A stretch of 54,410 nucleotides of DNA from a virus (lineage: Duplodnaviria > Caudoviricetes), in the IMG/VR virus record IMGVR_UViG_3300029266_000978, positions 1-54,410 of that record. One strand, written 5' to 3'. Positions 6,962 through 51,696 of the stretch are shown here, in pieces. Position 1 is the stretch's first letter. Every line of letters begins with the position of its first letter. The notes under the pieces are model-generated. The model saw only the letters and a program-made list of their open reading frames with translations, ran no database searches and was not told the DNA's origin. A program made the position numbers and the translations under genes.

Positions 6962-8515
6962 ATGCAATATAATAATCCTAGTGAGATAGTTAAAACTCTT
7001 ACATTCGGAAAAGAAGCGAATGACCAAATAATAGCAGGTGTCGAAAAGTTAGCAAACGCAGTAAAGTCCACATTAGGGGCTTCAGGAAAATGCGTAATTT
7101 ACGAAGACTCTGCAGGAAAACCGGTAATTACAAAAGACGGAGTAACCGTTGCAGAAAGCGTAGTCTTATTACATCCGGTTGAGAATATAGGAGCGACCCT
7201 TATAAAGCAAGCAGCAAGAAACACTGTAAGAGAAGCAGGTGACGGTACAACAACATCTACCGTCCTTGCTAACTCTTTATTAAAGATTACAAACAAACAT
7301 TTAGATGAAGAAAAAGTTAGAGAACTTAAAGCAGGCATTATTAGCGGTGCTGACAAAGTTAAAATATATCTTGATAAAACCAGTACTGTTGTTAAAGGCG
7401 CGATGTTACAAAACGTCGCTATCATTAGCTGCAATAACGATAAAGAACTTGGAACCAAAATTGGCCAAGCTTATGAGCAAGTTGGAAAGAATGGAGTTGT
7501 ATTAATGGAAGAATCCGAAACGAATGAAACTTATGTTGATTTTGTTGAGGGTGTACAATTTGATAGTGGATTAAAGTCTACTCATTTAATAACAGACAAA
7601 GACAAGCATACAGCTGTTTTAGACAACCCTTACGTACTTATTGTTTCTTCTCCTATTCCTAATATAAGAAAGATACAAAGTATCTTAGAACACGTTATAA
7701 AGGAAAAAAGAAGTTTACTTATAGTTGCAGATATGGAACAACAACCATATGCTACATTATTATCAAATAAGGTAAAAGGAAATATAAAAGTAAACATTGT
7801 AGATGTACCAGGTTTTGGATTAACAAGACAAGATACTATGGATGATTTAGCTATTCTTACCGGAGCCATTATAATGAACGAAGAATTAGGTGATGATTTA
7901 GATTTAATTAATCCTGAGGTATTAGGTAGCGTTAAGAAATCTGTTACAGATGAAAAGTCTACAGTATTACAAATTGAAGCTTCTGATGATGTTACTGAAC
8001 GAATAGCTGAAGTAACTAAAAGTATAGAGAATGAAAATAATCCATTCTTTAAAAAGAAATTAGAACAACGCTTATCAATGCTATCTGGACAAGTTGGCAT
8101 TATATATGTAGGAGCTGATACAGAAATAGAATTAAAAGAAAAGAAAGATAGAGTAGAGGATGCAATTCATGCAACCAAAGCGGCTTACAAAGAAGGTATT
8201 GTTGCAGGAGGTGGAGTTGCTTTATTAAATGCTGCCATGTCTATTAAGCCAAAAAACAAAGGAGAAGAGATTCTTTTGGAATCAATTAAATCACCTTATT
8301 ATACTATTTTAGATAATGCGGGTATTGTTGAGATTAAAAAACAAACCATAAAGAATAGGGGTATTGATGTTAAGACTGGCAAAGAAGTTAATATGATTAA
8401 AGCCGGTATTATAGATCCAGTGTTAGTTACTAAGTCTGCTCTTAAAAATGCAGTAAGTGTAGTAACAACTATTGTATCTGCCGATTGTGTAATTAGTAAT
8501 AAAAGATTAGCATAA
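6962..8515 (+). CDS. groEL: Phage-encoded GroEL-like chaperonin
   Basis: Motifs ITKDGVTVA, AGDGTTT, KEKKDRVEDA, GIVAGGG and GIIDP; 517 aa with no GGM tail. Confidence 0.95.
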   Translation: MQYNNPSEIVKTLTFGKEANDQIIAGVEKLANAVKSTLGASGKCVIYEDSAGKPVITKDGVTVAESVVLLHPVENIGATLIKQAARNTVREAGDGTTTSTVLANSLLKITNKHLDEEKVRELKAGIISGADKVKIYLDKTSTVVKGAMLQNVAIISCNNDKELGTKIGQAYEQVGKNGVVLMEESETNETYVDFVEGVQFDSGLKSTHLITDKDKHTAVLDNPYVLIVSSPIPNIRKIQSILEHVIKEKRSLLIVADMEQQPYATLLSNKVKGNIKVNIVDVPGFGLTRQDTMDDLAILTGAIIMNEELGDDLDLINPEVLGSVKKSVTDEKSTVLQIEASDDVTERIAEVTKSIENENNPFFKKKLEQRLSMLSGQVGIIYVGADTEIELKEKKDRVEDAIHATKAAYKEGIVAGGGVALLNAAMSIKPKNKGEEILLESIKSPYYTILDNAGIVEIKKQTIKNRGIDVKTGKEVNMIKAGIIDPVLVTKSALKNAVSVVTTIVSADCVISNKRLA

Positions 8516-8772
8516 TGCAAGCAATCAATTATTTTTTAATTATAGAAAAGATCAAAGAAGCTCCGAAGAAAGTAGGAGGTATTGAATTGACAGAAAAGCA
8601 AGATAGCGACGTTAGATATTTAAAAGCTAATGTAATTAGTGTAGGAGATAAGATTGAAGGCATTAAACCCGGTGCTTCTATAAGGTACGATAAACACGCA
8701 GGTCACGGAATAGAATGGAATGACAAGCTTTATTATGTTATTAAAGTTAGCGATGTAGTTATTGTAGAATGA
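8515..8772 (+). CDS. groES: GroES-like co-chaperonin
   Basis: 85 aa with KKVGGIEL mobile loop and ANVISVG; TAATG overlap with groEL. Confidence 0.9.
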   Translation: MQAINYFLIIEKIKEAPKKVGGIELTEKQDSDVRYLKANVISVGDKIEGIKPGASIRYDKHAGHGIEWNDKLYYVIKVSDVVIVE

Positions 8773-9209
8773 GGTTAACGCCTACAGATCTAAGAGAAAT
8801 AAATTTATTTAAGTATTACAGGCTTGTCAGACGATGGGCTTGTAAAACTTATAATTTAAAAGATGCAGACTTAGAGCTGTTAGTTTATCTAGACTGCAAA
8901 GAATTTTTTACTCGCAATGATTTTATAAACGGTATATACACATATACCTGGGATAAAAACAGATGGGAAAGATTAAGAAGAAAAGGATGGATCGATGTAT
9001 TTAAAGAACGTAATAGAACTACTTCTAAATATGCGGTATATAAAGTTTCTTTAAAAGGTAAACATTTAATAAGTAGAATATATAGAATATTATTAGCGGA
9101 AGAAGATTTACCTACATCGGCTAGAAGTGTTTTTTATAACAATAAAACATATACAGACAAAGTTTTTAACAAGGCTATTGATGATATGATAAGAGATAAA
9201 GATAGATAA
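8769..9209 (+). CDS. Hypothetical protein, possible winged-helix DNA-binding protein
   Basis: Basic 146 aa; RLRRKGWI...YKVSLKGK resembles a MarR-like wing; coupled to both neighbours. Confidence 0.5.
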   Translation: MRLTPTDLREINLFKYYRLVRRWACKTYNLKDADLELLVYLDCKEFFTRNDFINGIYTYTWDKNRWERLRRKGWIDVFKERNRTTSKYAVYKVSLKGKHLISRIYRILLAEEDLPTSARSVFYNNKTYTDKVFNKAIDDMIRDKDR

Positions 9210-9589
9210 TGGATTTTAAATTAAAAGATTTTTCAGAACTTGTTGGTATAGACAAAGAAACTTCTACATATAGTACTCCTGTATTTAAAAAAGACTTGGA
9301 TGGAACTATAATGGGTGAAGCTAATAATGATGGAACAATCTTTATTGACAAATCATTAAAAGGTAAAGACAAGACAGAAGCAGTTGAACATGAAAAAGTT
9401 CATTTAGATCAAATGGCTCAAGGTAAACTTCAGTACACTAATGACACTGTTACCTGGAAAAAAGATACGAAATCACCGCCTAGAGTATATAAAAGAGAAG
9501 GTGGAATGTTAATAGACGAAAAAACAGGTGAAAGCGCAGAAGAAGGTGGTGCTTTTGAATGGGAAGACGAAGCATATAATAAAAAATAA
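9209..9589 (+). CDS. Putative zincin metallopeptidase
   Basis: HEKVH (HExxH) preceded by GEANNDGTIFID, with a downstream WEDEAY glutamate. Confidence 0.6.
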   Translation: MDFKLKDFSELVGIDKETSTYSTPVFKKDLDGTIMGEANNDGTIFIDKSLKGKDKTEAVEHEKVHLDQMAQGKLQYTNDTVTWKKDTKSPPRVYKREGGMLIDEKTGESAEEGGAFEWEDEAYNKK

Positions 9590-9590
9590 T

Positions 9591-11372: not shown

Positions 11373-12536
11373 ATGGGGAAACCAGGACCAGTACAAACGC
11401 CTATAACAGCGCGTATTAAAAGAACAACACAAGGAGGAATGACTACACAGCCGCTATTAAACATGGGCGCACCTGTAAAAATGAAGCGAACTCCCGCTAA
11501 AAAATCATTAGTAGGTAATCAAGATCAATTACCTGCAAACCTTCAAGCAGACATATTAGCTGCTCCAGGGAAAATGTATGATAAATCGCCAGGGAAAATG
11601 TATGATAGATCGCCAGCTCAAATTTCAGTTGGCAAGAAAGACGAGGCTTCACAAAAAGCTATTAGAGAAGGTCTTCGCGATCAAAAAATTGATGGCTATG
11701 TAAATGATTCTGCTTTTAATGATTCTAATATGGATGGCACTATGGCATCTAGAGCTGTAAAAGGATTATATAGAATGGGCAAAAGAGCGGTACTGCGTGC
11801 TGGCGGACCAGCTGGTAATGCAATGGCTAATATATCTCAAGCAAAAGATAATATGCAAGATAAGCATGATTACAATAATAATCATTATGTAAAGTTTAAA
11901 GGTGACAATCCAAGCTTGTTTACAGGTAATGATGACAAGAAGATGCCAGATGGTGGTTACAATCCAAAGGTTAAGAAAAAAGTTTCATACGATACTGCTT
12001 ATAAAAATAGAGATAAGAAAGTTTACGGAGGTATGGATAAAGCTGCTTATACTAAAGAGGCTAAACGTCAAAATGCTAATTTTAAGAAAACAGGTAAGTG
12101 GGATGTTAAATCTAGTTACGCTAAAAAAGCAGTTGCTAAACCAGTAAATGAAATTAAGCCAACTGGTGTTACAAATAAAAAAGTTGAAATTACAACTAAA
12201 TTAGATCCTAAGGTAATAAAGAAACAAGTTTCTAAAGTTAATAAAACTCCTAAAGAAACTTCATCTAGAGCCGCTAAGTTAAGAGCTAAAGGTAATGCTC
12301 AATTAGCAGCAGGTGACACAAAAGGAGCTCAAAGAACAAGAAAAAAATACGATAGAAAGAACGCAAAGGTTGCTAGAAAAACTAAAAAAGGTACTAATAG
12401 AGTGGAGTATGACGAAAGTACTGGTAAAGGTGGAAGTGTATTAGGTAATGCACTTAGAACTGTTACAGGTAAAAGAAAAAGAGATAAAGCTGCAGCAGAC
12501 AGAAGAAAGAATGCTCCAGGAGGAAGCATGATTTAA
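11373..12536 (+). CDS. Highly basic hypothetical protein with SP/AP-K-M repeats
   Basis: 387 aa, Lys-rich, with PITARIKR and repeated PGKMYD. Confidence 0.7.
   Translation: MGKPGPVQTPITARIKRTTQGGMTTQPLLNMGAPVKMKRTPAKKSLVGNQDQLPANLQADILAAPGKMYDKSPGKMYDRSPAQISVGKKDEASQKAIREGLRDQKIDGYVNDSAFNDSNMDGTMASRAVKGLYRMGKRAVLRAGGPAGNAMANISQAKDNMQDKHDYNNNHYVKFKGDNPSLFTGNDDKKMPDGGYNPKVKKKVSYDTAYKNRDKKVYGGMDKAAYTKEAKRQNANFKKTGKWDVKSSYAKKAVAKPVNEIKPTGVTNKKVEITTKLDPKVIKKQVSKVNKTPKETSSRAAKLRAKGNAQLAAGDTKGAQRTRKKYDRKNAKVARKTKKGTNRVEYDESTGKGGSVLGNALRTVTGKRKRDKAAADRRKNAPGGSMI
11565..11616 (+). repeat. 24-bp tandem repeat encoding PGKMYD(K/R)S
   Basis: ccagggaaaatgtatgata(a/g)atcg twice, followed by ccag. Confidence 0.9.
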
Positions 12537-14815: not shown

Positions 14816-15035
14816 AGAACTTATTAAAGTAGCTAAGGAGGCTATTGTTGATTCAGGAGAAGATATTACAGCGGATAGATTAAAGAATGCAGCGGCAACT
14901 AAAAAGCTAGCTATATTTGATGCGTTCGAAATTCTTAACAGAATACAAGAGGAGCAAGATATTCTTGATGAAAAACCTAGAGAAATAAAAGAAGAAGAGT
15001 CTTTCAAAGGTTTTGCTGAAAAAAGATCTAAATAA
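14760..15035 (+). CDS. Putative terminase small subunit
   Basis: Helical 91-aa protein (RLKNAAATKKLAIFDAFEIL) with TAATG overlap onto the large subunit. Confidence 0.6.
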   Translation: MNIKETKKNIILAGHKAVEELIKVAKEAIVDSGEDITADRLKNAAATKKLAIFDAFEILNRIQEEQDILDEKPREIKEEESFKGFAEKRSK

Positions 15036-17248
15036 TGTACAAGCAAACATTATATAAAATAATAACTCCTGTCAAATCAAACACTATATCTAGGCTAAAT
15101 AAAGCTAAGAAGTGGGAATATGGTTATAACAAAGAACACGATATTGTGGTTATAAGCAAGACAGGACAAATAGGTGATATATATAATATACAAAATCTTA
15201 AAATAGCATTACCTAAAAGACCATCTAAAATAGATGATTCTACTAACAAGTGGACACCAGAAGAATATCCTAAAGAGTTAAAGGCTATTAATAGCATATT
15301 TGACTGGAGGGATTATCCTGAAACGTTCAAATTAAAATGGGGACAATACATAGATGAGCAATTTAATAAAAGAGAAAACGGTTACTGGTTCAATAATAAG
15401 GGCTTGGGTACTTACATTACTGGTACTCACTTTATGTACCTGCAGTGGTCCAAGATTGATGTTGGGCAACCAGACTTTAGAGAATCAAATAGATTATTCT
15501 ACATTTTCTGGGAAGCTTGTAAAGCAGACAGACGATGTTATGGTATGTCATATCTCAAGAATAGACGTAGCGGCTTTTCATTCATGGCGTCTGGCGAGAC
15601 CGTTAATATGGCCACGATATCAAGTGATGCACGGTTTGGGATTTTGTCCAAATCTGGCGCCGATGCGAAAAAAATGTTCACTGATAAGGTTGTACCCATT
15701 AGTGTTAACTTCCCGTTTTTCTTTAAACCAGTACAGGATGGGATGGACCGCCCAAAGACCGAACTCGCCTATCGTGTACCCGCATCAAAATTTACCAGGA
15801 GGAGACTCGATAATAATAAAGCCACTGAAACCATCGCCGGTCTGGACACGACCATCGACTGGAAGAACACAGGTGATAACGCCTATGATGGGGAGAAACT
15901 CAAACTCCTCGTCCACGACGAAAGTGGTAAATGGGAAAGGCCGAACAACATCCTCAACAATTGGCGTGTTACCAAAACGACATTAAGATTAGGTTCTAGA
16001 ATTATTGGAAAGTGTATGATGGGATCAACATCAAATGCTTTAGATAAAGGTGGTTCAAATTTTAAAAAGTTATATAACAATTCAAACGTATTAAAAAGAA
16101 ACAAGAACGGGCAAACAGCTTCAGGATTATATTCTCTTTTTATTCCTATGGAATGGAATTATGAAGGATTTATTGATGAATATGGATATCCTGTTTTTGA
16201 TACACCTAAAGACACTGTTCTGGGCCCGTTTAAAGACGTTATAGACGTTGGGGTTATTGAGCACTGGAATAATGAGGCTGAAGGATTAAAGAGCGATCAG
16301 GATGCTTTAAATGAATTTTATAGACAGTTCCCAAGAACAGAGGAACATGCGTTTAGAGATGAAACAAAAAATAGTATATTTAATTTAGTTAAAATATACG
16401 AACAAATAGATTACAATGAGGACTTACATAATACAAATGTATTAACAACTGGAAGTTTTCAATGGGCTAGCGGTATAAAAGACTCTACAGTTTTATTTAC
16501 GCCTAATCCAAATGGTAGATTTAAAATATCTTGGGTTCCTGGTGCAAATTTGCAAAACAGGCAAGAGGTTAGAAAAGGATTAAGAATTCCAGGTAATCAA
16601 CATATGGGTGCTTTTGGTTGTGATAGTTATGATATATCAGGAACAACTGATGGCCAAGGATCTAAGGGTGCTTTGCACGGATTGACTAAATTCAGCATGG
16701 AAGATGCTCCCGCTAATACATTTTTTTTAGAGTATATAGCTAGACCACAAACCGCTGAAATGTTTTTTGAAGATGTACTAATGGCTTGCGTATTTTATGG
16801 TATGCCTTTATTATGTGAAAATAACAAACCAAGACTTTTATATTATTTTAAAAGAAGAGGCTATCGAGGATATTCTATGAATAGACCTGATAAGGTTTGG
16901 AATAAGTTATCGGTTACCGAAAGAGAAATAGGTGGAATGCCTAACTCAAGTGAAGATATTAAGCAAGCTCATGCAGCGGCTATTGAAACATATATTGATA
17001 ATTATGTCGGATTACAAGAAGATGGTCAGTATGGAACAATGTATTTTAATAATACATTAAATGATTGGGCAGGATTTGATATAAACAATAGAACGAAGTT
17101 TGATGCTGCTATAAGTTCTGGACTTGCTGTAATGGCTTGTAACAGACATTTATATCATCCAAAACAAAAAGTTGAAAGAGAACAATTAAGTTTAAAAATA
17201 GCTAAATACACCAACAGTGGTGGTTTATCAAAATTAATAGAAAAATAA
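15035..17248 (+). CDS. terL: Terminase large subunit
   Basis: Walker A-like KNRRSGFS, Walker B LLVHDESGK, coupling motif GSTSN, and nuclease GCDSYD...FDAAIS. Confidence 0.92.
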   Translation: MYKQTLYKIITPVKSNTISRLNKAKKWEYGYNKEHDIVVISKTGQIGDIYNIQNLKIALPKRPSKIDDSTNKWTPEEYPKELKAINSIFDWRDYPETFKLKWGQYIDEQFNKRENGYWFNNKGLGTYITGTHFMYLQWSKIDVGQPDFRESNRLFYIFWEACKADRRCYGMSYLKNRRSGFSFMASGETVNMATISSDARFGILSKSGADAKKMFTDKVVPISVNFPFFFKPVQDGMDRPKTELAYRVPASKFTRRRLDNNKATETIAGLDTTIDWKNTGDNAYDGEKLKLLVHDESGKWERPNNILNNWRVTKTTLRLGSRIIGKCMMGSTSNALDKGGSNFKKLYNNSNVLKRNKNGQTASGLYSLFIPMEWNYEGFIDEYGYPVFDTPKDTVLGPFKDVIDVGVIEHWNNEAEGLKSDQDALNEFYRQFPRTEEHAFRDETKNSIFNLVKIYEQIDYNEDLHNTNVLTTGSFQWASGIKDSTVLFTPNPNGRFKISWVPGANLQNRQEVRKGLRIPGNQHMGAFGCDSYDISGTTDGQGSKGALHGLTKFSMEDAPANTFFLEYIARPQTAEMFFEDVLMACVFYGMPLLCENNKPRLLYYFKRRGYRGYSMNRPDKVWNKLSVTEREIGGMPNSSEDIKQAHAAAIETYIDNYVGLQEDGQYGTMYFNNTLNDWAGFDINNRTKFDAAISSGLAVMACNRHLYHPKQKVEREQLSLKIAKYTNSGGLSKLIEK
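15354..15986 (+). CDS. Candidate overprinted (+1 frame) lipoprotein inside terminase
   Basis: 210 stop-free codons, hydrophobic WVLTLLVLTLCTC signal and a local shift to C/G-ending terminase codons. Confidence 0.5.
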   Translation: MSNLIKEKTVTGSIIRAWVLTLLVLTLCTCSGPRLMLGNQTLENQIDYSTFSGKLVKQTDDVMVCHISRIDVAAFHSWRLARPLIWPRYQVMHGLGFCPNLAPMRKKCSLIRLYPLVLTSRFSLNQYRMGWTAQRPNSPIVYPHQNLPGGDSIIIKPLKPSPVWTRPSTGRTQVITPMMGRNSNSSSTTKVVNGKGRTTSSTIGVLPKRH

Positions 17249-19713: not shown

Positions 19714-20880
19714 ATGTCAGAACAAACAGAAGAACAAGTACCTGCTGTTGAAGAAATCAAAGCAGAAGAATCAAAACCTATGTCGGTGGAAGATGGTGTC
19801 ATCAAAGTAGATTTAGGTCAACTAAACAAACTAAACGAAGATGCCAATACAAAGCAAGAAACAGCAGACGTGGTTGCAGATCAACCAACCGAGCCTGTAC
19901 AAAAAGTGGAAGAAGAAATACCACAACAACCAGACTCCGTTCAAGATGCTCCCCAATCAGTTATTGAAGAAATAACAGAAGAAGAAATAGAAGAAAAAGT
20001 AGAAACAATAGCAGAAGAAATTCAGCAAGCTGTTGTCGAACAAGATCTTGGAGTTCCATTACCTGAAAATATTCAGAAGGTTGTTGAGTTTATGGATGAA
20101 ACCGGCGGAAGCTTGGAAGATTACGTAAAACTAAATACAGATTATTCGTCTTTAAACGATAATCAATTATTAAGAGAATTCTACGAAAATACAAAACCTC
20201 ATTTAGATAGAGAAGAGATTGACTTTATAATGGAAGACAATTTTTCTTATGATGAAGAGGTTGATGAAGAAAGAGATATACGTAGAAAAAAATTAGCAAG
20301 AAAAGAAGAGCTAGCAAATGCTAAGAATCATCTAGACGGCTTAAAAAGTAAGTACTATAAAGAAATAAAAGCTGGAACTAATTTAGCTCCAGAAACAAAA
20401 AAAGCGGTAGAGTTTTTCAACCGTTATAATAATGAAAAACAAGAAGCAACCAAAGTAGCTGAACATCAAGTGTCTACGTTTAATGCTAAAACAGAAAAGC
20501 TTTTTTCCAATGATTTCAAAGGTTTTGATTTCAATGTTGGCGAAAAGAAATTTCGTTACAAAGTAAATAACGCAGACCAAGTAAGAGACACCCAAGGAGA
20601 TATCAATAATTTTGTCAAGAAGTTCTTGAACGATAAAAATGAAATGAATGACGCCGCGGGTTATCACAAGTCTCTATTTACAGCTATGAATCCAGATGCA
20701 ATTGCAAAACACTTTTATGAGCAAGGAAAAACCGATGCCATGAAAACAAGCGTAACTAATGCAAAGAATATTGATATGAGTCCGAGAGGGGTTCATGAAA
20801 ACGTCAAACATTCTACAGGAACTACGTTTAAGTCTATTACATCTAAAGGTTCTTCGAAGTTTGGAATAAAACAAAGATAA
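19714..20880 (+). CDS. Capsid scaffolding protein
   Basis: Very acidic N-terminus, located between portal and capsid genes. Confidence 0.7.
   Translation: MSEQTEEQVPAVEEIKAEESKPMSVEDGVIKVDLGQLNKLNEDANTKQETADVVADQPTEPVQKVEEEIPQQPDSVQDAPQSVIEEITEEEIEEKVETIAEEIQQAVVEQDLGVPLPENIQKVVEFMDETGGSLEDYVKLNTDYSSLNDNQLLREFYENTKPHLDREEIDFIMEDNFSYDEEVDEERDIRRKKLARKEELANAKNHLDGLKSKYYKEIKAGTNLAPETKKAVEFFNRYNNEKQEATKVAEHQVSTFNAKTEKLFSNDFKGFDFNVGEKKFRYKVNNADQVRDTQGDINNFVKKFLNDKNEMNDAAGYHKSLFTAMNPDAIAKHFYEQGKTDAMKTSVTNAKNIDMSPRGVHENVKHSTGTTFKSITSKGSSKFGIKQR
19841..19975 (+). CDS. Candidate overprinted (+1 frame) 44-aa basic peptide inside scaffold gene
   Basis: MPIQSKKQQTWLQINQPSLYKKWKKKYHNNQTPFKMLPNQLLKK with an A-rich leader. 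Confidence 0.55.
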   Translation: MPIQSKKQQTWLQINQPSLYKKWKKKYHNNQTPFKMLPNQLLKK

Positions 20881-41689: not shown

Positions 41690-41851
41690 ATGAATTTAAG
41701 TGAATTGAAGTTGTATATTATAAATGGTAGCGCTATAGGCGTAACTACTTATACGCAAATTGAAGATTGGTTAAAAATAATATTGCTGGTTGTCACTATA
41801 GGTTATACTGTAGCAAAATGGTCATATGTAAAAAAGAAAGATAATGAATGA
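41690..41851 (+). CDS. Small holin-like membrane protein (53 aa, not in ORF track)
   Basis: MNLSELKLYIINGSAIGVTTYTQIEDWLKIILLVVTIGYTVAKWSYVKKKDNE; ATGA overlap with the endolysin. Confidence 0.7.
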   Translation: MNLSELKLYIINGSAIGVTTYTQIEDWLKIILLVVTIGYTVAKWSYVKKKDNE

Positions 41852-42659: not shown

Positions 42660-44378
42660 CTAACCATCACACGCTACGCAATCTTCATTCATTGCTTGAG
42701 CGGCAATATCTCCACGTAGAACACTTTCTGTTCTAGTATAATATAAAGTTTTTACTCCATTTTTCCACGCATCCATATGCACTTTGTTAAGCCACTTAGG
42801 TGTTGCTTCACTTGGAAAAGCTAAGTTTAAACTTACTGATTGATCTATATACTGCTGTCTTAATCCAGCCTGCTTAACTAATTCTAATTGATTTATCTCT
42901 TTAAAAGTTTTAAAAACTTCTTTCGCAGGTATATCATGCCCAACTCTAATATCATTAAGTTGATCAATATCTTGTACGGAACCTCCGTCAGCAAGTATCT
43001 TATTCCATACTTCTTCATTATTTAATTTGTGTTTTCTTAATAACTTAACTAATGTAGGATTCTTCCTTATAAAAGTTCCTTTAGCGCTTTGCTCTGTAAA
43101 TACATTAGCAGCCCAAGGTTCTATCCCCGCAGAAACATTACCACTAAGCTTACTATTAGATACAGTGGGAGCAACAGCACGCAAATGAGTATTACGCATA
43201 CCAGTACCAACACACCAAAGAGGTTCACCATAGATCTCTGCAAGGTCCATTGAAGCTCGCTCACTTTCAATTTTAATCTGCGAAAAAATCTTCCTAGTCT
43301 CAAACTGAGATAATAAACCTTCGAAAGGAATACCTTTTTCCTGGAGATATGTATGCCATCCAAGTGCGCCCAATCCCAGTGCTCTCCCTTTTTGTGCAGA
43401 TCGAATAGAGTTTTCGAACCCACGTAAGCCTTTGGCTCTCTGAATAAATTCTTCCATAACGCCATCAAGAAAGAATATGGAGTCATATATAAGGTTAGTG
43501 TCTTTCCACTCTTCATACTTAGCTAAATTTAATGATGATAAACAACATACAAAACTATGGTTTTCATCTGTGTGTAATGTAATTTCAGAGCATATGTTTG
43601 TCATATGAACTTTTAATCCGTTTTGTTTATATGCTGGAGGATTAGCTTTATTAACATTTCCTTTAAACATAATATAAGGTTCTCCTGTTGCTTTACGCTT
43701 TCTAAGTAGCTTGCTCCATTTATTTCTAGATTCAGGATCTCCTTGTTCTAGCTTACGCATAAACTTATCTCCTACTACTGCACATTGATGCAAGTTAAGT
43801 GATTGTCTATTTACATCTCCTTTAGGTTCTCTAATCTCAAGCCAGTCTTCAAAATCCCCATGCTCTATATTCATATTAACACTCGCAGCACCTCTTCTAA
43901 CTGAGCCTTGGTTTGTAGCTAATATAGTAGAATCATATATTTTACAGAAGGGTACAACACCATCAGAAGTTCCATTTCCAGTTATTCTAGTTCCTGCAGG
44001 TCTTATTTGATTAATACCAATTCCTACACCGCCGCCGTGTTTAGCTAGCAACATCATTTCTAAATTCTTTTGACCTATGTCCTGGATAGAGTCTGCAACA
44101 TCAATGCCAAAGCAAGAGATAGGGAGGCCACGGTCAGTACCAGTATTACTAAGTACCGGACTTGCGAGGCATAACCATCCATTCCATATGTAACTAAAAA
44201 ACGTTTCAGCCATTTCAGGCTTATATAATCTACGAGCAACTGTTTTAGCGACTCTTTGGTATGCTTCTTTAGGCGTTTCTCCGTCGAATAAATATCCCCC
44301 GGATATAGTCTTCTTGTATACGTCTGTATTACCCCACGCAGGGTAATCTTCTCCTTTAATCCAGTTTTCATTCCACAT
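42660..44378 (-). CDS. nrdA: Ribonucleotide reductase class I alpha subunit
   Basis: LPISCF, NICSEI, VCCLSSLN, APTVSNS, KTLYY and C-terminal CVAC; no ATP cone. Confidence 0.95.
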   Translation of the reverse strand: MWNENWIKGEDYPAWGNTDVYKKTISGGYLFDGETPKEAYQRVAKTVARRLYKPEMAETFFSYIWNGWLCLASPVLSNTGTDRGLPISCFGIDVADSIQDIGQKNLEMMLLAKHGGGVGIGINQIRPAGTRITGNGTSDGVVPFCKIYDSTILATNQGSVRRGAASVNMNIEHGDFEDWLEIREPKGDVNRQSLNLHQCAVVGDKFMRKLEQGDPESRNKWSKLLRKRKATGEPYIMFKGNVNKANPPAYKQNGLKVHMTNICSEITLHTDENHSFVCCLSSLNLAKYEEWKDTNLIYDSIFFLDGVMEEFIQRAKGLRGFENSIRSAQKGRALGLGALGWHTYLQEKGIPFEGLLSQFETRKIFSQIKIESERASMDLAEIYGEPLWCVGTGMRNTHLRAVAPTVSNSKLSGNVSAGIEPWAANVFTEQSAKGTFIRKNPTLVKLLRKHKLNNEEVWNKILADGGSVQDIDQLNDIRVGHDIPAKEVFKTFKEINQLELVKQAGLRQQYIDQSVSLNLAFPSEATPKWLNKVHMDAWKNGVKTLYYTRTESVLRGDIAAQAMNEDCVACDG

Positions 44379-44589: not shown

Positions 44590-44606
44590 TTTATTGTTTT
44601 TTAAGT

Positions 44607-45575
44607 TTACCAAATATCTTCATAGTCTTCACCTTCGCCTGCTTTCGAATAGTCGGTCGGACGAATAGCAAAAAAATCAGTGTGGGTAACGCCCCCGGTA
44701 AGATGATAAAACCAATCAAGGTTAGAAGCCGCCGCGGTGTCATATGCAAAATACGATCCCGGGTCAACATAACCCAATTCAACAAGTTTTTCATTTGTTC
44801 TCTTCTTTATAAAGTGTTTTAGATCTATTGCTTTAATGCCTTCAATATCACCCATTTCAAACATCTTATCAATATACTTAGTTTCTAATTTAACCATTGC
44901 TTCTGCAGCAGCTATTATATCTTCACGACATAAATGCAGTAATTGATTGTCTTCTTCACACATATGACGGAATAATTGACAACCCATCTTACTATGCAAA
45001 GACTCATCTCTTACAGACCATTTCATTTGTTGCCCTATACCTTTAAGTAAATTGCGTAACTGAAATGAATACAATACAGCAAAAGCAGAATATAAACTGA
45101 CACCTTCTGCGAACGCGCTAAAGACCGCCAATGATTTTGCGATACCAGAGCTAGAATTACCGCTGTAAGCAACCAAATTGTTAAACCGCTCAGCAGTAGC
45201 GGGTTCATGTAAAAAAGCTTCATAATTTTCTAATTTTAATGTTTCATTTAAATAGCTATAAGCTACTGCATGTACAGTCTCTTGCGAGCCAAACATCATC
45301 GCCATCTGTTGTATTTCGTGTTTAGGAAACCACGATACGACTTTCTGGGTCCAGTAATCTGAAACAGCGCATTCGGTTTGCGCGAATCCAAGAAGTATGT
45401 TCCCAACAAGGTGTTTTTCTTTTTCATCTAATTTTTCATTCCAATCTTTAATATCACTTTGCATGCTTATCTCGGTGTGTAACCAAAATGCTTGTGCTTG
45501 CTTTAACCATCCCTCTGTGTAGTATTCTGGATACTCAAAAGGCTTATACGCTACGCGCTCATCGAACAGTCCCAT
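44607..45575 (-). CDS. nrdB: Ribonucleotide reductase class I beta subunit
   Basis: ETVHAVAYS, EGVSLYSAF, RDESLH and TDFF...TDY motifs. Confidence 0.95.
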   Translation of the reverse strand: MGLFDERVAYKPFEYPEYYTEGWLKQAQAFWLHTEISMQSDIKDWNEKLDEKEKHLVGNILLGFAQTECAVSDYWTQKVVSWFPKHEIQQMAMMFGSQETVHAVAYSYLNETLKLENYEAFLHEPATAERFNNLVAYSGNSSSGIAKSLAVFSAFAEGVSLYSAFAVLYSFQLRNLLKGIGQQMKWSVRDESLHSKMGCQLFRHMCEEDNQLLHLCREDIIAAAEAMVKLETKYIDKMFEMGDIEGIKAIDLKHFIKKRTNEKLVELGYVDPGSYFAYDTAAASNLDWFYHLTGGVTHTDFFAIRPTDYSKAGEGEDYEDIW

Positions 45576-47302: not shown

Positions 47303-48130
47303 TTATTTGCCAACACTTAACTCTGCTTTAATTGCAGCATAAGGATTGTAGTTATTTAATTTAATTTCGAAATCGCATGGTATATAAAGTGTTTGACTAT
47401 CTTTAGCTATAAACAAGCCTTCGTCTAATTCTAACTTAGGTAAAGCTCTATTTGATCTAGTTAAGTATAACCTAGCTTGATCTAAATGATTGTTGTATAA
47501 ATGACAATCACCTAACTGACCTATTAATTCTCCAGGCTCATATCCAGATCCTTTAGCTAACATCTCTAGTAGCAATCCATACATTGCTATATCATAAGGT
47601 AATCCTAAAAATACATCAGCAGATCTTTGTTGCCACATTAAATCTAGTTTACCCTTGTTTATATAAACTTGGAAAGCGTAATGACAAGGAGGCAATGCCA
47701 TTTCTTTTAGATCTTGCGGAGCCCACGCGCTAACTATTAAGCGCCTCGATTGAGGATCTAGCTTAATGCTATACACTAATGATTTAAGCTGATCTACGCC
47801 TTCAAAATCGCGCCATTGTTTTCCATAAACTGGGCCTAATGTTTCATCTGTTCTGCCTGATCTTTCATAATCAGGTCTCCAATACTTAACGCCGTTATCT
47901 TCTAAGTATTTTAAATCTGTTCTACCATTTAATATCCAAAGCAATTCTGTTCTTGCTGCATTAAAAGAAACTTTCTTTCCAGTTAATAAGGGGAACCCGT
48001 CAGACATCTGGTGTCGTATAGTTCTTCCGAAGATAGATCGCGTCCCAGTGCCTGTTCGGTCCTCCTTATCCATTCCTGTGTTGAGTATTTCTGATAGTAA
48101 TCCTCTGTATTCATTTTCTATGTTTTTCAT
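47303..48130 (-). CDS. thyA: Thymidylate synthase
   Basis: DRTGTGT, GPVYGKQWR, MALPPCH, QRSADVFLGLPYD and HLYNNH. Confidence 0.95.
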   Translation of the reverse strand: MKNIENEYRGLLSEILNTGMDKEDRTGTGTRSIFGRTIRHQMSDGFPLLTGKKVSFNAARTELLWILNGRTDLKYLEDNGVKYWRPDYERSGRTDETLGPVYGKQWRDFEGVDQLKSLVYSIKLDPQSRRLIVSAWAPQDLKEMALPPCHYAFQVYINKGKLDLMWQQRSADVFLGLPYDIAMYGLLLEMLAKGSGYEPGELIGQLGDCHLYNNHLDQARLYLTRSNRALPKLELDEGLFIAKDSQTLYIPCDFEIKLNNYNPYAAIKAELSVGK

Positions 48131-48374: not shown

Positions 48375-50096
48375 TTATTCCCATGGCATTTTTTCGCCGC
48401 TAACATTAATTTGTTCATGAGGTATAAAACAACCTGACTTCGGTTCCCATTTAAAATGTGCTTCAGCTCCATTAGTACCTAAGTTTTGAAACTTAACTTT
48501 TAACACTTTAGCTTTAACAGTTTTCTGTTCATAATCTCTATGAACTAATATACCATGATAAGAAGCATCATACCATTCACCTCCTCCTTTAATGTTATAC
48601 ATTGTAGGTTCTTCTATTTGTCCTTGTTGATTCTTATACATCTTAGTAGGATGTGCAACAATAAATACTAATACGTCATACTTCTTAGCAAAGAGTTCAA
48701 TCTTCATTAAGTATTCCATAGTATATCTATTAACATCCTCAGTCTTACAATCTACATCTCTTACCTTATTGAATGGATCAATGACTAAACATTTAATACC
48801 TTTACGTTTAACTAGCTCAGCTCCTTTACGAAGAACAGATTCTAAAGTATAACGTTCCATATCAATGTGGAAATAATTACTATTACAATGATCAGCTACT
48901 TGATTCCATCTTTCCCCACCAATATCTTCTTTAGTAGGCATGCCTTGCCAAGTCTTACGCATTAATTTATGAGCGTGTAAATAAGTTGGTTGATTCTCCG
49001 GCGAAGCAAAAGCCGTTTTCCATCCATAATTAGTATTGTATCCAATAACCATTTGATCGACAAAATCTGACTTACCGGAAGACGGAATGCCAGTAACAGT
49101 AATGAATTGACCAGTGTAAGTTGAAAAGATATCGTCAAAATTTTGAAGGCCAACTTGAAATCCTGGTTTAAAGCCATTGCGAACAAAGTCGGTAACTTCA
49201 TCTTCAACATCCCTGAACGTTGTAACATTCTCGAGAGGTACAGGTCTTGCTCCTTCAATTCTCTCTGATAGTTTTTGTTTTCCATATTTTTGTAGGTATT
49301 CATTTGCATCTTTGCAATCATCGAATGATGCTAGATAACAAACTTCAGAGCCTAACCTTCTGACTAATTCAGATTGTAATGCTTGTCCAGCTTCATCGGA
49401 ATCACATGCTAATATTATCTTTTCTTTATCGCTAAAGTAATCAATACAAGCATCTAAGTATTCTAAGTTATTTGTGTTAAGAGTTGCACCATTAGGAACA
49501 GATATAGCGTTTGGTATACCGGCTTCATGCAATGCTAATACATCCATTTCACCTTCTACTATAACACAATATTCATATCCTATTATACTATTTATATTAT
49601 AGAATACTTTTTCAGCACCCTTATATAACTTAAAGTTTTTTCTTCCATCGCGATACTTAATATTAATAAGTTGATCACCCATAAAATAATTAAACTTTAT
49701 AACATTCTCGGTTTTACCGGTCTGAGGCATAAACTCAGGACCCTCACTGATATTTAAATCAATAAGAGTCTGAGTAGATATTCCTCTTGTTTTAAACCAT
49801 TCAATTACTTTATCACTGACAAACTCAGGATTCGCACTAGTAGTCTTAGTGACTGGTCTAACGTAGGTTTTTTCACTAGCTCCCTTACGTTGGTACGTAT
49901 GTAATTGAAATGATGTATTACAATTGTGACAAGTACCGAGACCACGTTCCCAGTCGTAAGAAGCACACTTTGCTTTTACATTTTTGGGTTTTCTATCAGG
50001 AGAACAGTTAGGGCATATACCCTGTTTCTTTCCTTCCTCAAGCTTATGTTGATTGAATTCATCAATCTCAAATCCATTGATCTCTGTTGTCTGCAT
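48375..50096 (-). CDS. Bifunctional DNA primase-helicase (T7 gp4 / Twinkle-like)
   Basis: Zinc finger CPNC...CHNC, TOPRIM VEGEMD and DSDEAG, Walker A GIPSSGKS, and LVIDP. Confidence 0.93.
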   Translation of the reverse strand: MQTTEINGFEIDEFNQHKLEEGKKQGICPNCSPDRKPKNVKAKCASYDWERGLGTCHNCNTSFQLHTYQRKGASEKTYVRPVTKTTSANPEFVSDKVIEWFKTRGISTQTLIDLNISEGPEFMPQTGKTENVIKFNYFMGDQLINIKYRDGRKNFKLYKGAEKVFYNINSIIGYEYCVIVEGEMDVLALHEAGIPNAISVPNGATLNTNNLEYLDACIDYFSDKEKIILACDSDEAGQALQSELVRRLGSEVCYLASFDDCKDANEYLQKYGKQKLSERIEGARPVPLENVTTFRDVEDEVTDFVRNGFKPGFQVGLQNFDDIFSTYTGQFITVTGIPSSGKSDFVDQMVIGYNTNYGWKTAFASPENQPTYLHAHKLMRKTWQGMPTKEDIGGERWNQVADHCNSNYFHIDMERYTLESVLRKGAELVKRKGIKCLVIDPFNKVRDVDCKTEDVNRYTMEYLMKIELFAKKYDVLVFIVAHPTKMYKNQQGQIEEPTMYNIKGGGEWYDASYHGILVHRDYEQKTVKAKVLKVKFQNLGTNGAEAHFKWEPKSGCFIPHEQINVSGEKMPWE

Positions 50097-50153
50097 TTAT
50101 TTAATTTAATTTAATTAATTATTCTCCTACTAAAGGGATATGTTTGTCTGTAC

Positions 50154-50462
50154 TTAAAAAGGTAAATCGTCTGCAGGCATTGGTGCTGCTGCTGCTTGCT
50201 GTGGCTGATCGGTTCTTGGTGCTGCTGCAACATTATCTCCGTTAGTCCATACTACCTTTACATTTCCAAGATAAACCTTAGCTACTTTAGCTTCGCGCTC
50301 TTCTTTTGATTGTTCTACAACTACAGGTCCTTGATTACCGAACTGATCGACTTCATCATTGATTGTAATTGTGATAGGTAAATACTTACCCTTCTTTCCT
50401 ACATAGATCTTTTCTTTAGGAATTTCATTTAAATTGATACTTGCTTTAATAATACTTGCCAT
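50154..50462 (-). CDS. Putative single-stranded DNA-binding protein
   Basis: 102 aa with the acidic DDLPF tail typical of SSBs, adjacent to recombination genes. Confidence 0.7.
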   Translation of the reverse strand: MASIIKASINLNEIPKEKIYVGKKGKYLPITITINDEVDQFGNQGPVVVEQSKEEREAKVAKVYLGNVKVVWTNGDNVAAAPRTDQPQQAAAAPMPADDLPF

Positions 50463-50464
50463 AA

Positions 50465-51196
50465 TTATAGTGTTTGATTTATAAAATAATTTTGTGGATT
50501 AAAATCCGGGTTTTCGTAAAACAATTTATATGCTTCACATGCTCTTTCAACTTTATCCTTGCCTTTAGCATAGAATTCTTCTGAACAATCGTATATACCT
50601 ATTTGATTTGTTGATTTATCTATAGCTATGAATATTAATTCATAACCAAACAATTCACGATATATATAAGCTTGACTGTTATAATTATATTTTTGCGCAG
50701 AGTAACGGAATTTTGTTATATCGGCTGTTGTTTTTAAATCAATAACCAGTTTTTGATCGTGATTTATTATATCAGCTTTACCTTTCCAAAGTCTTCCATT
50801 TATCTTTGCAATACCAGGTACTTCATATTCAATGTTATTACCTTGTATTAAGTCTAAGCAAATTTCATTAGACATCATAGTGTCTATCATTACTTCTAAC
50901 TTATCTACTTCGGATTGTAACAAACACATTTCGCCACCTGATATCTCTTTATATGCTTTAGTATTTCTAGTAGTAGCTTCAACTATTCTAAATTTCTTAA
51001 GCTTTTCAGGTTCAAGAATTGCAGTATGAAAGTAACCACCTACTAAAAACGCTGGGATTTGCTTTTGAGCATCTCTTAGCGATAAAGGATTAGTTAATAG
51101 CTTAGAGATATCTGAGTTACTTAGAAATTGCTTTCCAAAGTCACCGTAATAATGCTCATCTATTCTAAGCTTATCTAGTTCTTCTTTTCTTGTCAT
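50465..51196 (-). CDS. RecE / exonuclease VIII-like PD-(D/E)xK nuclease
   Basis: LSNSDI, GGYFHTAILEP, KGKAD...IDLKTT and Y..QAYIY. Confidence 0.85.
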   Translation of the reverse strand: MTRKEELDKLRIDEHYYGDFGKQFLSNSDISKLLTNPLSLRDAQKQIPAFLVGGYFHTAILEPEKLKKFRIVEATTRNTKAYKEISGGEMCLLQSEVDKLEVMIDTMMSNEICLDLIQGNNIEYEVPGIAKINGRLWKGKADIINHDQKLVIDLKTTADITKFRYSAQKYNYNSQAYIYRELFGYELIFIAIDKSTNQIGIYDCSEEFYAKGKDKVERACEAYKLFYENPDFNPQNYFINQTL

Positions 51197-51696
51197 AATG
51201 TTTTTAAAGTTTCAGCAGGAATAGTATATTTAGATTTTATTGCATCCAACTTACCACCTGCTTTTAAGTAGTCTTTTGCTTTTGTTAATGCTTCTCCTTG
51301 AAGCGTTGGTTTATTAAGAGCATCACTGTCTTGAGTGTCATCGATTAGAAATAAATTTCCAAGAGCGTATTTTTTTCCATAAGAAGAAGCACTACCAAAC
51401 TTTTGCGGCATTTGCATACCTTTTTGAGCCAGGTCGATTCCGACGATTGAAGTAGCGTGTATAGCATTTTCACCATCAGACACAGTAGCTTTAGACTCTA
51501 GAATAGGAAAGTCTTGATTAGACTCTATTAATCTTTCGCTAATTATTACTGAGACACCTAGTTCTAGTAAATAAGGTTTAGTTGCTTCAAGGATGTCTTC
51601 GGCGGATCTGAAGTTATACTTGCCGAAGGAGTTAAATCTACTTTTTTTCGATTTGAACTTTGTCTGGATTGTAGCCAGCTTTTCATTTAATTGCAT
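51193..51696 (-). CDS. ERF-family ssDNA annealing protein
   Basis: FGKYNFRSAEDIL and QKFGSASSYGKKYALGNLFLIDD..DSD. Confidence 0.88.
   Translation of the reverse strand: MQLNEKLATIQTKFKSKKSRFNSFGKYNFRSAEDILEATKPYLLELGVSVIISERLIESNQDFPILESKATVSDGENAIHATSIVGIDLAQKGMQMPQKFGSASSYGKKYALGNLFLIDDTQDSDALNKPTLQGEALTKAKDYLKAGGKLDAIKSKYTIPAETLKTL

What the first reader, a model, noticed from the sequence alone, without database searches (positions are those of the whole stretch)
7305..51686. Genome-wide layer of +1-frame overprinted ORFs inside conserved core genes
Seen: the same-strand nested ORFs all fall in the +1 frame of their host gene. They occur in groEL (7305-7505), 11902-12147, terL (15354-15986), scaffold (19841-19975), nrdA (44371-44075, 43516-43121), nrdB (45223-45035, 44794-44591), thyA (48114-47983), primase (49321-48962) and ERF (51686-51564). 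Several coincide with local GC3-rich patches. Inference: systematic overprinting that stores small membrane or basic proteins (lysis, exclusion, anti-defence) in essential genes. Caveat: +1 frames of AT3-rich genes are intrinsically Leu/Ile/Lys-rich and contain many ATGs, so some will be chance.
Basis: partly seen in the sequence, partly recalled or inferred. Interest (0 to 1): 0.75.

Follow-up and report, generated by a model that had tools for sequence, protein, structure and literature searches.

The report
Hidden +1-frame genes inside phage core genes
Several essential genes of this marine phage carry a second, shifted reading frame that evolution keeps open across many related phages and that would encode small membrane proteins, so standard annotation probably misses real genes here.

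Summary
The window is most of an uncultured marine podophage related to Flavobacterium and Cellulophaga phages. All 11 listed ORFs exist and all lie in the +1 frame of their host gene.

Composition explains part of the +1 bias. +1 stops are rarer than +2 stops, 0.085 against 0.130 per codon.

Seven ORFs are not chance: terL 15354-15986, nrdA 43121-43516 and 44075-44371, nrdB 45035-45223 and 44591-44794, primase-helicase 48962-49321, and groEL 7305-7505.
- In up to 80 diverged relatives per gene, codons that would create a +1 stop (xTA before a purine) are used 0-12% of the time.
- The same codons in harmless contexts are used 18-61% of the time.
- A divergence-matched neutral model predicts 0.2-17 fully open relatives where 19-71 are seen.
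- Closed lineages and outgroups show normal stop densities.
- All seven products carry a hydrophobic segment, kept in most or all open relatives.

The thyA ORF has moderate support. The ERF and scaffold ORFs behave as chance, and 11902-12147 fits chance but is untestable. Translation and function remain untested.

The parts
15354..15986 (+). +1 ORF of 210 aa inside terL. It has an N-terminal signal-like or TM helix followed by conserved Cys residues, then a basic tail rich in S/T/P/G/R.
   Evidence: 19 of 79 relatives have no +1 stop across host codons 106-316, against 0.2 expected. The GC3 rise coincides with the ORF span only in open lineages. A shuffle within the region gives P(0 stops) <= 0.0025 in each of 20 open sequences. 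AF2 predicts a helix at residues 2-31 and the rest has pLDDT below 50.
15035..17248 (+). Host gene: terminase large subunit.
   Evidence: phrog_6681, E=3.9e-164.
43121..43516 (-). +1 ORF of 131 aa inside nrdA with a C-terminal hydrophobic stretch of about 30 aa.
   Evidence: xTA before a purine is used in 17/1057 cells, against 464/1122 before a pyrimidine. 71 of 80 relatives are open against 3.5 expected. Host T3 in the TM segment is 0.67 against 0.41 expected, p=2.7e-8.
44075..44371 (-). +1 ORF of 98 aa at the 5' end of nrdA with a C-terminal TM-like segment.
   Evidence: Stop-making context 38/565 against harmless context 498/818. 54 of 80 relatives are open against 14.8 expected. Column test p=0.0037.
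43613..43981 (-). Third +1 block of nrdA (host codons 132-254). It is open in relatives but decayed in this window.
   Evidence: 75 of 80 relatives are fully open (exp 8.75, obs 0.31 stops per sequence). The window has 7 stops inside.
42893..43018 (-). Fourth, short +1 block of nrdA (about 41 aa in the window).
   Evidence: Block at host codons 452-497: exp 3.40, obs 0.69, and 55 of 80 relatives open. The run and its ATG were located. Support is weaker because the block is short.
42660..44378 (-). Host gene: ribonucleotide reductase large subunit (nrdA).
   Evidence: Pfam Ribonuc_red_lgC, E=3.7e-92.
45035..45223 (-). +1 ORF of 62 aa inside nrdB with two hydrophobic segments.
   Evidence: 17/308 against 195/343. 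36 of 47 relatives are open against 2.6 expected. Column test p=0.0022.
44591..44794 (-). +1 ORF of 67 aa at the 3' end of nrdB. It has a TM segment plus a basic tail and ends 16 nt past the nrdB stop.
   Evidence: 4/408 against 8/45. 46 of 47 relatives are open against 3.8 expected. Block ratio 0.02.
44607..45575 (-). Host gene: ribonucleotide reductase small subunit (nrdB).
   Evidence: Pfam Ribonuc_red_sm, E=1.3e-55.
48962..49321 (-). +1 ORF of 119 aa inside the primase-helicase gene, hydrophobic in its second half.
   Evidence: 116/1034 against 372/607. 28 of 80 relatives are open over the whole span against 2.1 expected. 58 of 80 are open over the reference-free block at codons 269-377, ratio 0.09.
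48375..50096 (-). Host gene: primase-helicase.
   Evidence: Pfam Toprim_2 and DnaB_C.
7305..7505 (+). +1 ORF of 66 aa inside groEL, basic and amphipathic or hydrophobic.
   Evidence: 134/1103 against 136/249 inside the region; outside it, 0.506 against 0.539. 62 of 80 relatives are open against 17.1 expected. Host T3 excess p=3e-4.
6962..8515 (+). Host gene: GroEL-type chaperonin.
   Evidence: Pfam Cpn60_TCP1, E=2.5e-47.
47983..48114 (-). +1 ORF of 43 aa inside thyA, acidic and not hydrophobic. Support is moderate.
   Evidence: 11/159 against 134/228. 51 of 55 relatives are open against 28.8 expected. Only one clean at-risk column was available.
51564..51686 (-). +1 ORF of 40 aa in ERF: chance.
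   Evidence: 60/171 against 80/246, so no avoidance. 30 of 80 relatives are open against 17.4 expected. Column test p=0.81.
19841..19975 (+). +1 ORF of 44 aa in the putative scaffold gene: chance.
   Evidence: 26 of 66 relatives are open against 24.4 expected. Shuffle p=0.39 and 0.11.
11902..12147 (+). +1 ORF of 81 aa (GTG start) in gene 11373-12536: fits chance and cannot be tested comparatively.
   Evidence: Shuffle p=0.35. Only 2 usable relatives out of 37 loci.

Best explanation
At least seven of the nested +1 ORFs are overprinted genes kept by natural selection. They lie in terL, nrdA (two), nrdB (two), primase-helicase and groEL.

Shown here:
- In this phage lineage, host-synonymous codons that would place TAA, TAG or TGA in the +1 frame are purged inside these blocks and not elsewhere.
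- Host third positions are biased to give the +1 products a hydrophobic helix, through T at the ORF's second codon position.
- In terL the bias also gives an S/T/P/G/R-rich tail, through C or G at that position.
- Individual lineages have lost or swapped the open state.

Inferred:
- Each block is translated from an internal ATG on the host gene's mRNA.
- The products are small, basic, membrane-anchored proteins.
- These are accessory proteins acting at the host envelope, for example in lysis timing, as a spanin-like partner, or in superinfection exclusion.

Why the +1 frame: the host's free third position is the new ORF's second position, which sets amino-acid class. A new protein can therefore be tuned without changing the old one.
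For: 1. Context test. Among L/I/V codons, xTA before a purine makes a +1 stop and xTA before a pyrimidine is harmless.
- nrdA ORF2: 17/1057 against 464/1122.
- nrdA ORF1: 38/565 against 498/818.
- nrdB: 17/308 against 195/343, and 4/408 against 8/45.
- primase: 116/1034 against 372/607.
- groEL: 134/1103 against 136/249.

2. Column-level tests with the window excluded: p=5e-5, 0.0037, 0.0022, 0.0045 and 0.013. For nrdB ORF2, region against outside gives 5.7e-5.

3. Divergence-matched neutral model. Fully open relatives, observed against expected: terL 19 vs 0.2; nrdA 71 vs 3.5 and 54 vs 14.8; nrdB 36 vs 2.6 and 46 vs 3.8; primase 28 vs 2.1; groEL 62 vs 17.1.

4. Negative controls.
- 32 'closed' terL relatives with the same host protein show 331/599 against 285/416.
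- The ERF and scaffold ORFs show no signal.
- Ten +2-frame runs score 0.57-1.13.
- groEL antisense ORFs score 0.77 and 0.84.
- Outgroup nrdA genes (61% and 51% aa identity) and outgroup terL genes (63% and 47%) carry stops at shuffle expectation.
- In nrdA, stops outside the four blocks occur at 0.94 of expectation.

5. Composition.
- In terL, GC3 rises only over the ORF span and only in open lineages.
- Host third-base composition there is A .26, C .29, G .22, T .24, against .38/.12/.14/.36 outside.
- Host T3 is in excess in the hydrophobic segments: nrdA ORF2 p=2.7e-8, groEL 3e-4, nrdB ORF1 8e-4, terL open 0.009 against closed 0.14.

6. Hydrophobic segments with 19-residue Kyte-Doolittle hydropathy of 1.8 or more occur in all seven. 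They are kept in 93-100% of open relatives, or 52% for groEL.

7. The terL product starts with basic residues, then a hydrophobic helix, then conserved Cys residues directly after the ATG.
Against: - There is no evidence of transcription start, translation or peptides. RNA runs hold only small shares of the stretch, as contigs.
- Overall synonymous variability of the host genes is not reduced inside the ORFs. O/E is 0.99 and 1.03 in nrdA and 1.01 in terL. Only terL columns 120-150 drop, to 0.66. Selection therefore acts on openness and composition, not exact sequence, which is unusual for established overlapping genes.
- The products match no family: Pfam, PHROGs and PADLOC gave nothing significant.
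- The AF2 model is low-confidence beyond one helix (mean pLDDT 40.8).
- Four consecutive +1 blocks in one gene (nrdA) is an odd architecture for independent genes.
- ATG conservation is uninformative, because the host codons involved default to T-ending forms.
- Within-region shuffles give only p=0.002-0.2 for the hydrophobic peaks.
- The open terL set was chosen for having no stops, so its 0/363 figure is by construction. Its support rests.
- Relatives are metagenomic contigs and are not independent. Column-level tests and the divergence-matched model address this only in part.
Confidence: 0.65

Rival explanations
1. Compositional chance. AT3-rich genes have few +1 stops and many ATGs, so long +1 ORFs arise and persist without selection.
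For: - +1 stop density is 0.085 per codon against 0.130 for +2.
- The shuffled null already yields 11.3 +1 ORFs of 40 aa or more.
- The ERF, scaffold and 11902 ORFs fit this picture.
Against: For the seven main ORFs:
- The context test shows 5- to 26-fold avoidance in all but nrdB ORF2, whose harmless-context sample is only 45 cells.
- The divergence-matched model predicts far fewer open relatives than are seen.
- Closed lineages and outgroups with the same composition carry stops at expectation.
Confidence: 0.04
2. The frames are kept open for trans-frame products. Ribosomes translating the host gene would shift to +1, by programme or by frequent slippage, and make fusion proteins with alternative C-termini. 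There would be no independent initiation.
For: - Several blocks lie in series in nrdA, and the fourth has no ATG conserved in 60% or more of relatives.
- Only openness and composition are selected, not exact sequence.
Against: - The terL product has a signal-like N-terminus right after its ATG. In many relatives a +1 stop sits immediately upstream of that ATG.
- Conserved stop clusters separate the nrdA blocks.
- A hydrophobic tail fused to cytoplasmic enzymes such as NrdA would be hard to rationalise.
- No slippery site was looked for.
Confidence: 0.08
3. Translation of the +1 frame matters but the peptide does not. Internal ribosome loading and transit would regulate mRNA stability, folding or expression of the host or downstream gene.
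For: - Host synonymous variability is not reduced inside the ORFs.
- The products have no recognisable fold or family.
Against: - Hydrophobic segments and host T3 excess are conserved.
- The directed C/G shift in the terL tail and the conserved Cys-containing motif point to selection on the product's make-up.
Confidence: 0.12
4. A nucleotide-level constraint unrelated to translation of the +1 frame. Candidates are codon-pair bias in highly expressed genes, mRNA structure, avoidance of TTAA/CTAG-type sites, or mosaic segments imported from donors with other codon usage.
For: - A mild window-wide +1 stop deficit exists: 1445 observed against 1519 +/- 14.
- Closed terL alleles sit next to open sisters on the tree, which suggests segment exchange.
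Against: - The depletion is specific to frame, block and lineage.
- In nrdA it vanishes outside the blocks (0.94).
- +2 stops are enriched, not depleted, inside the blocks (1.0-1.4).
- xTA stays at 41-61% in harmless contexts inside all but one of the blocks (nrdB ORF2: 8/45, 18%), so a codon-usage shift cannot explain it.
Confidence: 0.06

Closest known systems
phiX174 gene E inside gene D (single-gene lysis protein)
   Same: A new gene lies wholly inside an older one in the frame shifted by one base. T-rich third positions of the old frame become second positions of the new frame and give a Leu-rich transmembrane domain. I read the passage on this pair in the review PMC8227390.
   Different: The hosts here are terL, RNR subunits, primase-helicase and GroEL of a roughly 60-kb tailed phage, not a 5-kb microvirus. 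There are several such ORFs per genome. No lysis activity has been shown, and the window already has a holin-like gene and an endolysin-like gene.
Lambda Rz/Rz1 and T7 18.5/18.7 embedded spanin pairs (recalled from general knowledge; only a search listing of a related Shewanella LambdaSo preprint was seen)
   Same: A small lipoprotein gene is embedded in the +1 frame of another phage gene. The terL ORF product has basic residues, a hydrophobic helix and then Cys residues at its N-terminus. No spanin was recognised in the window.
   Different: The host gene is terL, not an i-spanin. The mature part is about 180 aa, much longer than the short Rz1-type product as I recall it. The residue before the Cys is not the usual small one. 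No lipoprotein predictor was available. The only lipoprotein lead is an ESM Atlas cluster at 0.86, below the tool's 0.9 mark.
Cryptic out-of-frame ORFs embedded in annotated genes of mycobacteriophage Patience (PMC4324244; passages read)
   Same: Same-strand ORFs in a different frame lie wholly inside tailed-phage genes, and peptides were detected from them. This shows such frames can be expressed.
   Different: The Patience authors report those ORFs as generally not conserved and possibly artefactual. Here the evidence is the reverse: strong comparative conservation and no expression data.
De novo membrane proteins from thymine-rich sequence in yeast (PMC7005711; search listing and start of the abstract only)
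   Same: T-rich sequence readily yields transmembrane segments that can be selected. The host T3 excess in the hydrophobic segments here fits this route.
   Different: The yeast work, going by its title and abstract, concerns non-genic sequence. Here the sequence is the alternative frame of essential phage genes.

Membership tests
Overprinted (nested, same-strand +1) viral genes | The ORF lies wholly inside an older, widely conserved gene in a shifted frame. | tested here: met
   Offsets. Host families.
Overprinted (nested, same-strand +1) viral genes | The alternative frame is kept open in diverged relatives beyond neutral expectation. | tested here: met
   for seven ORFs. Not met for the ERF and scaffold ORFs.
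Overprinted (nested, same-strand +1) viral genes | Synonymous substitution in the host frame is reduced over the overlap. | tested here: not met
   O/E is 0.99-1.03. Only the terL signal-like segment drops, to 0.66. The measure is crude and close to saturation.
Overprinted (nested, same-strand +1) viral genes | The new frame has a narrower phyletic spread than the host gene. | tested here: met
   Outgroup terL and nrdA genes lack the open frames. A closed terL clade exists.
Overprinted (nested, same-strand +1) viral genes | The product is translated. | not testable with these tools
   RNA runs hold only small shares of the stretch, as contigs. No ribosome profiling or proteomics was available.
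Embedded o-spanin (Rz1-like) | Lipoprotein signal peptide with a lipobox Cys. | tested here: inconclusive
   Basic residues, a hydrophobic helix and conserved Cys residues are present. The box is non-canonical and no predictor was available.
Embedded o-spanin (Rz1-like) | Embedded in or adjacent to an i-spanin gene within the lysis cassette. | tested here: not met
   The host gene is terL. The holin-like gene is at 12537-12935 and the endolysin-like gene at 41848-42198.
Holins / single-gene lysis proteins | Sequence membership in a known lysis family. | tested here: not met
   No PHROG or Pfam hit for any of the eight ORF products.
Holins / single-gene lysis proteins | Small protein with one or more TM segments and a charged tail. 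| tested here: met
   Hydropathy and charge counts, especially for nrdB ORF2 and nrdA ORF2. This is a resemblance only.
Programmed +1 frameshift products | A shift site at the start of the open block and no independent start. | not tested
   No slippery-site search was made. The stop just upstream of the terL ORF's ATG argues against this reading.

The most novel reading that the evidence does not exclude
This phage lineage carries a hidden accessory genome. At least nine selected +1 ORFs in six core genes encode small basic membrane proteins. They are born by overprinting, because the host's free third codon position sets the new protein's residue class. They are switched on or off between lineages by replacing 'open' and 'closed' alleles of the core gene through homologous recombination. 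Core-gene alleles would then differ in phenotype, such as lysis timing, exclusion or host takeover, while encoding the same core protein.
Probability: 0.4. Interest if true: 0.85.

Novelty: new variant of a known kind. Interest (0 to 1): 0.78.

Why it matters
If these frames are translated, several consequences follow.
- A capsid-limited phage gains accessory membrane proteins at no cost in genome length, and every standard gene caller misses them.
- Synonymous sites in hallmark genes such as terL, RNR, primase and GroEL would not be neutral in this lineage. That affects dN/dS estimates, dating and marker-gene phylogenies.
- Synonymous recoding or codon optimisation of such genes would silently destroy other genes.
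- The open and closed terL alleles and the decayed nrdA block give natural on/off contrasts. These make gene birth by overprinting directly testable.

Prior reports: six full-text searches listed no paper whose title or abstract reports nested genes inside terL, RNR, primase or GroEL of tailed phages with comparative support. I judged this from listings, abstracts and passages only. Supplementary files were not opened.

Tried and rejected
**Approaches that failed or gave little**
- My first extraction of terL homologues took the longest ORF per locus. It picked the portal gene in most loci and was discarded. I rebuilt the set by tblastn.
- A Synplot-like scan of synonymous variability found no reduction over the ORFs. 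I report this as evidence against sequence-level constraint.
- Start-codon conservation is not used as evidence, because the host codons involved default to T-ending forms.
- Family searches of the ORF products gave nothing above threshold: PHROGs, Pfam and PADLOC (one hit at E=0.0024).
- The ESM Atlas gave only unnamed clusters at 0.92 and a lipoprotein-site cluster at 0.86, which is a lead only.
- AF2 on a 32-sequence alignment gave one helix and otherwise low confidence.
- The homologue search returned 56 unnamed predicted proteins. Some are frame chimeras from assembly indels. They add sequences, not function.
- RNA runs hold at most 0.17 of the sampled words and are kept as contigs. I did not lay them, since contigs cannot show frame, starts or translation, so they say nothing on expression or habitat.
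- The long antisense ORFs in groEL tested as chance.
- The scaffold, ERF and 11902 ORFs are rejected as chance or untestable.

**Rows dropped before counts**
- terL: 1 of 80 loci (L055, cut at its 3' end).
- nrdB: 33 of 80 loci gave no full-length gene within the flank.
- thyA: 25 of 80 loci.
- Scaffold: 14 of 80 loci.
- Gene 11373: 35 of 37 loci.
- In the 10-genome scan, genes crossing the ends of the 20-kb pieces were lost. 14 of 40 genes had fewer than 3 usable orthologues and were not scored.

Full report
**What the window is.** It is a 54,410-base linear virus record, estimated 85% complete, with 29-37% GC.
- The plus-strand arm carries structural and packaging genes. The minus-strand arm carries replication and nucleotide-metabolism genes.
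- terL is closest to an uncultured podovirus record (62% aa), then to Flavobacterium 'elemo' phages (45%) and Cellulophaga phages.
- Hosts of the claimed ORFs are confirmed as GroEL, NrdA, NrdB, ThyA, a Toprim+DnaB primase-helicase and ERF by Pfam, and as terL by PHROGs.
- The 'scaffold' label rests on gene position only.

**Observation.** All 11 ORFs are open at the stated coordinates, and all are offset by one base from the host frame.
- Over 40 genes of at least 100 codons, +1 stops occur at 0.085 per codon and +2 stops at 0.130. Composition alone therefore favours +1 ORFs.
- A null of 1000 synonymous shuffles still gives only 11.3 +/- 2.8 +1 ATG-ORFs of 40 aa or more, against 18 observed (p=0.016).
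- That null flags the longest +1 ORFs of terL, nrdA, groEL and nrdB as too long, even when codons are shuffled only within 50-codon blocks. Primase is flagged gene-wide only.
- The ORFs in gene 11373 and in the scaffold gene are not unusual.

**terL.** Of 80 fetched IMG/VR loci, 79 gave a full terL at 74-84% aa identity.
- Across host codons 106-316, 19 relatives plus the window have no +1 stop. Another 28 have 1-7 stops, many with shorter or shifted long runs. The remaining 32 have 8 or more.
- The host protein is nearly the same in all three groups.
- In the open group, GC3 rises to 0.4-0.68 over the ORF span and falls back to background right after it. In the intermediate group it rises only as far as the shorter runs reach. 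In the closed group it never rises. GC at positions 1 and 2 is the same in all three groups.
- Shuffling synonymous codons only inside the region, which keeps its own codon usage, gives 3.6-6.5 expected stops and P(0) <= 0.0025 for each of the 20 open sequences.
- xTA codons are still used at 132/277 harmless sites inside the region. Closed sequences use them equally at risky sites (331/599) and harmless sites (285/416).
- A model that keeps each relative's amino acids and its number of synonymous differences from the window (56% of eligible codons) predicts 0.2 fully open relatives. 19 are seen.
- On a tree built from the protein outside the region, one large clade is closed. The rest is open or intermediate, with a few closed sequences sitting next to open sisters. 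That pattern looks like replacement of the segment by recombination.
- More distant records (63% and 47% aa identity) have 10 and 15 stops in the region and no GC3 patch. Neither record annotates a nested gene.

**nrdA, nrdB, primase-helicase, groEL.**
- I used the best 80 loci per gene. Full-length relatives numbered 80 for nrdA, 47 for nrdB, 80 for primase and 80 for groEL.
- In each claimed ORF region, stop-making codon contexts are avoided 5- to 26-fold relative to harmless contexts in the same region (nrdB ORF2 rests on only 45 harmless cells). The counts are in the evidence field.
- In groEL there is no context effect at all outside the ORF (0.506 against 0.539).
- Column-level tests treat each alignment column as one observation and exclude the window. 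They are significant for every one of these ORFs. They are null for the closed terL set and for ERF.
- The divergence-matched model predicts 2-17 open relatives where 28-71 are seen.
- A reference-free block finder on relatives alone recovers the same intervals. In nrdA it finds four blocks, at host codons 0-100, 132-254, 285-418 and 452-497. Outside those blocks, stops occur at 0.94 of expectation.
- The second nrdA block is open in 75 of 80 relatives but holds 7 stops in the window. The window's own lineage has therefore lost it.
- Two relatives (L154, L155) have decayed blocks two and three.
- nrdA genes of two cultured phages (61% and 51% aa identity) carry +1 stops at shuffle expectation in all four blocks.

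**Unbiased controls.**
- With ten whole related genomes, held as 40 unjoined pieces, 26 genes could be scored. +1 stops relative to expectation were 0.41 for nrdA, 0.53 for nrdB, 0.62 for primase, 0.72-0.86 for a middle group that includes terL, groEL and thyA, and 0.9-1.07 for most others.
- The +2 frame scored 0.90-1.26 across those genes.
- All 34 +1 runs of 35 codons or more in the window were scored in relatives only, and they split in two. Eight runs score 0.17 or less, all in nrdA, nrdB, primase or terL. The other 26 score 0.27-1.21.
- Ten +2 runs score 0.57-1.13.
- The long antisense ORFs in groEL score 0.77 and 0.84.

**The weaker claims.**
- thyA (55 of 80 loci usable): 11/159 against 134/228, and 51 of 55 relatives open against 28.8 expected. 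Only one clean at-risk column was available, so support is moderate.
- ERF: 60/171 against 80/246, and 30 of 80 relatives open against 17.4 expected. This fits chance or nearly so.
- Scaffold (66 of 80 loci usable): 26 relatives open against 24.4 expected. This is chance.
- 11902-12147: shuffle p=0.35 and only 2 usable relatives.

**What the products look like.**
- All seven supported ORFs have a 19-residue window with Kyte-Doolittle hydropathy of 1.8-3.3. It is kept in 93-100% of open relatives, or 52% for groEL.
- They have large excesses of K+R over D+E.
- Host third positions in those hydrophobic segments are enriched in T among relatives. Examples are nrdA ORF2 at 0.67 against 0.41 (p=2.7e-8), groEL (p=3e-4), nrdB ORF1 (p=8e-4), and terL open (0.009) against closed (0.14). 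Primase and nrdB ORF2 are not significant.
- The terL product begins with basic residues, a hydrophobic helix and a conserved Cys-containing motif. Its remainder is 45% S/T/P/G/R in open sequences, against 19% for the same frame in closed ones.
- AF2 gives a helix at residues 2-31 and low confidence elsewhere.
- No product matches any family.
- 56 unnamed predicted proteins in public data match the terL product at 34-77% identity.

**Interpretation.**
- Shown: frame-, block- and lineage-specific purging of +1 stops, together with directed composition at host third positions.
- Inferred: the blocks are translated from internal ATGs into small membrane-anchored proteins.
- The +1 preference has a simple basis. 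The host's third position is the new ORF's second position, which fixes residue class. The phiX174 D/E pair, as described in a review, shows the same thing.
- The main weakness, apart from the lack of expression data, is that host synonymous variability is not reduced over the ORFs. Selection seems to act on openness and composition rather than on exact sequence.
- That weakness keeps two rivals alive: trans-frame products, and translation that matters without a functional peptide.
- Function is open. The window has a holin-like gene and an endolysin-like gene but no recognised spanin. A spanin-like or exclusion role for the terL product is therefore a lead, not a finding.

**Novelty.**
- Overprinting itself is well known. 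In tailed phages, peptides from out-of-frame embedded ORFs have been seen in mycobacteriophage Patience, whose authors judged them mostly unconserved.
- Six full-text searches turned up no listed report of several comparatively supported nested genes inside terL, RNR, primase or GroEL of one tailed-phage lineage.

Noticed in passing
window 43613-43981 (-), nrdA host codons 132-254: This +1 block is open in 75 of 80 relatives and has a conserved ATG at host codon 134. In the window it holds 7 stops, so this phage appears to have lost an overprinted ORF that its relatives keep.
   Followed up: yes
window 7630-8100 (-) and 7099-7458 (-), antisense to groEL: These are long antisense ORFs of 156 and 119 aa. 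In 80 relatives their stops occur at 0.77 and 0.84 of expectation, so they look compositional. The antisense ORFs at 37288-37800 and 13141-13566 could not be tested.
   Followed up: partly
the +1 ORF regions of nrdA, nrdB and terL: +2-frame stops are enriched 1.05-1.40-fold inside the +1 ORF regions. This is expected if host third positions are pushed towards T.
   Followed up: partly
window 12537-12935 (+), 41848-42198 (+), 8515-8772 (+), 14198-14815 (+), 51766-52515 (-): PHROG hits: holin (phrog_3427), endolysin or peptidase (phrog_894), GroES next to groEL, a second GroES-labelled family just upstream of terL, and a family labelled RNA polymerase sigma factor. No spanin was recognised.
   Followed up: no
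L028/L043 and L036/L020 (terL loci): Closed terL alleles with 8-9 stops and no GC3 patch sit next to open sisters on the tree built from the rest of the protein. This suggests the ORF-bearing segment is exchanged by recombination.
   Followed up: partly
proteins P0001, P0031, P0053, P0055: These database proteins matching the terL +1 product switch between the terL frame and the +1 frame. They most likely reflect indels in the source assemblies.
   Followed up: no
window 16044-16244 (+), terL host codons 336-402: A second +1 run of about 65 codons in terL is open in 30 of 32 closed-clade relatives and 23 of 47 others. Only 1.7-2.3 stops are expected, which is too few to judge.
   Followed up: no
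window 47168-47293 (-) in the MazG-like gene; 49805-50095 (-) in the primase-helicase gene: These further +1 runs show intermediate stop ratios of 0.27-0.41 in the ten-genome set.
   Followed up: no
G007 (related genome), terL: terL matches in two adjacent pieces (residues 1-470 and 464-736). This points to a frameshift or a split gene in that record.
   Followed up: no
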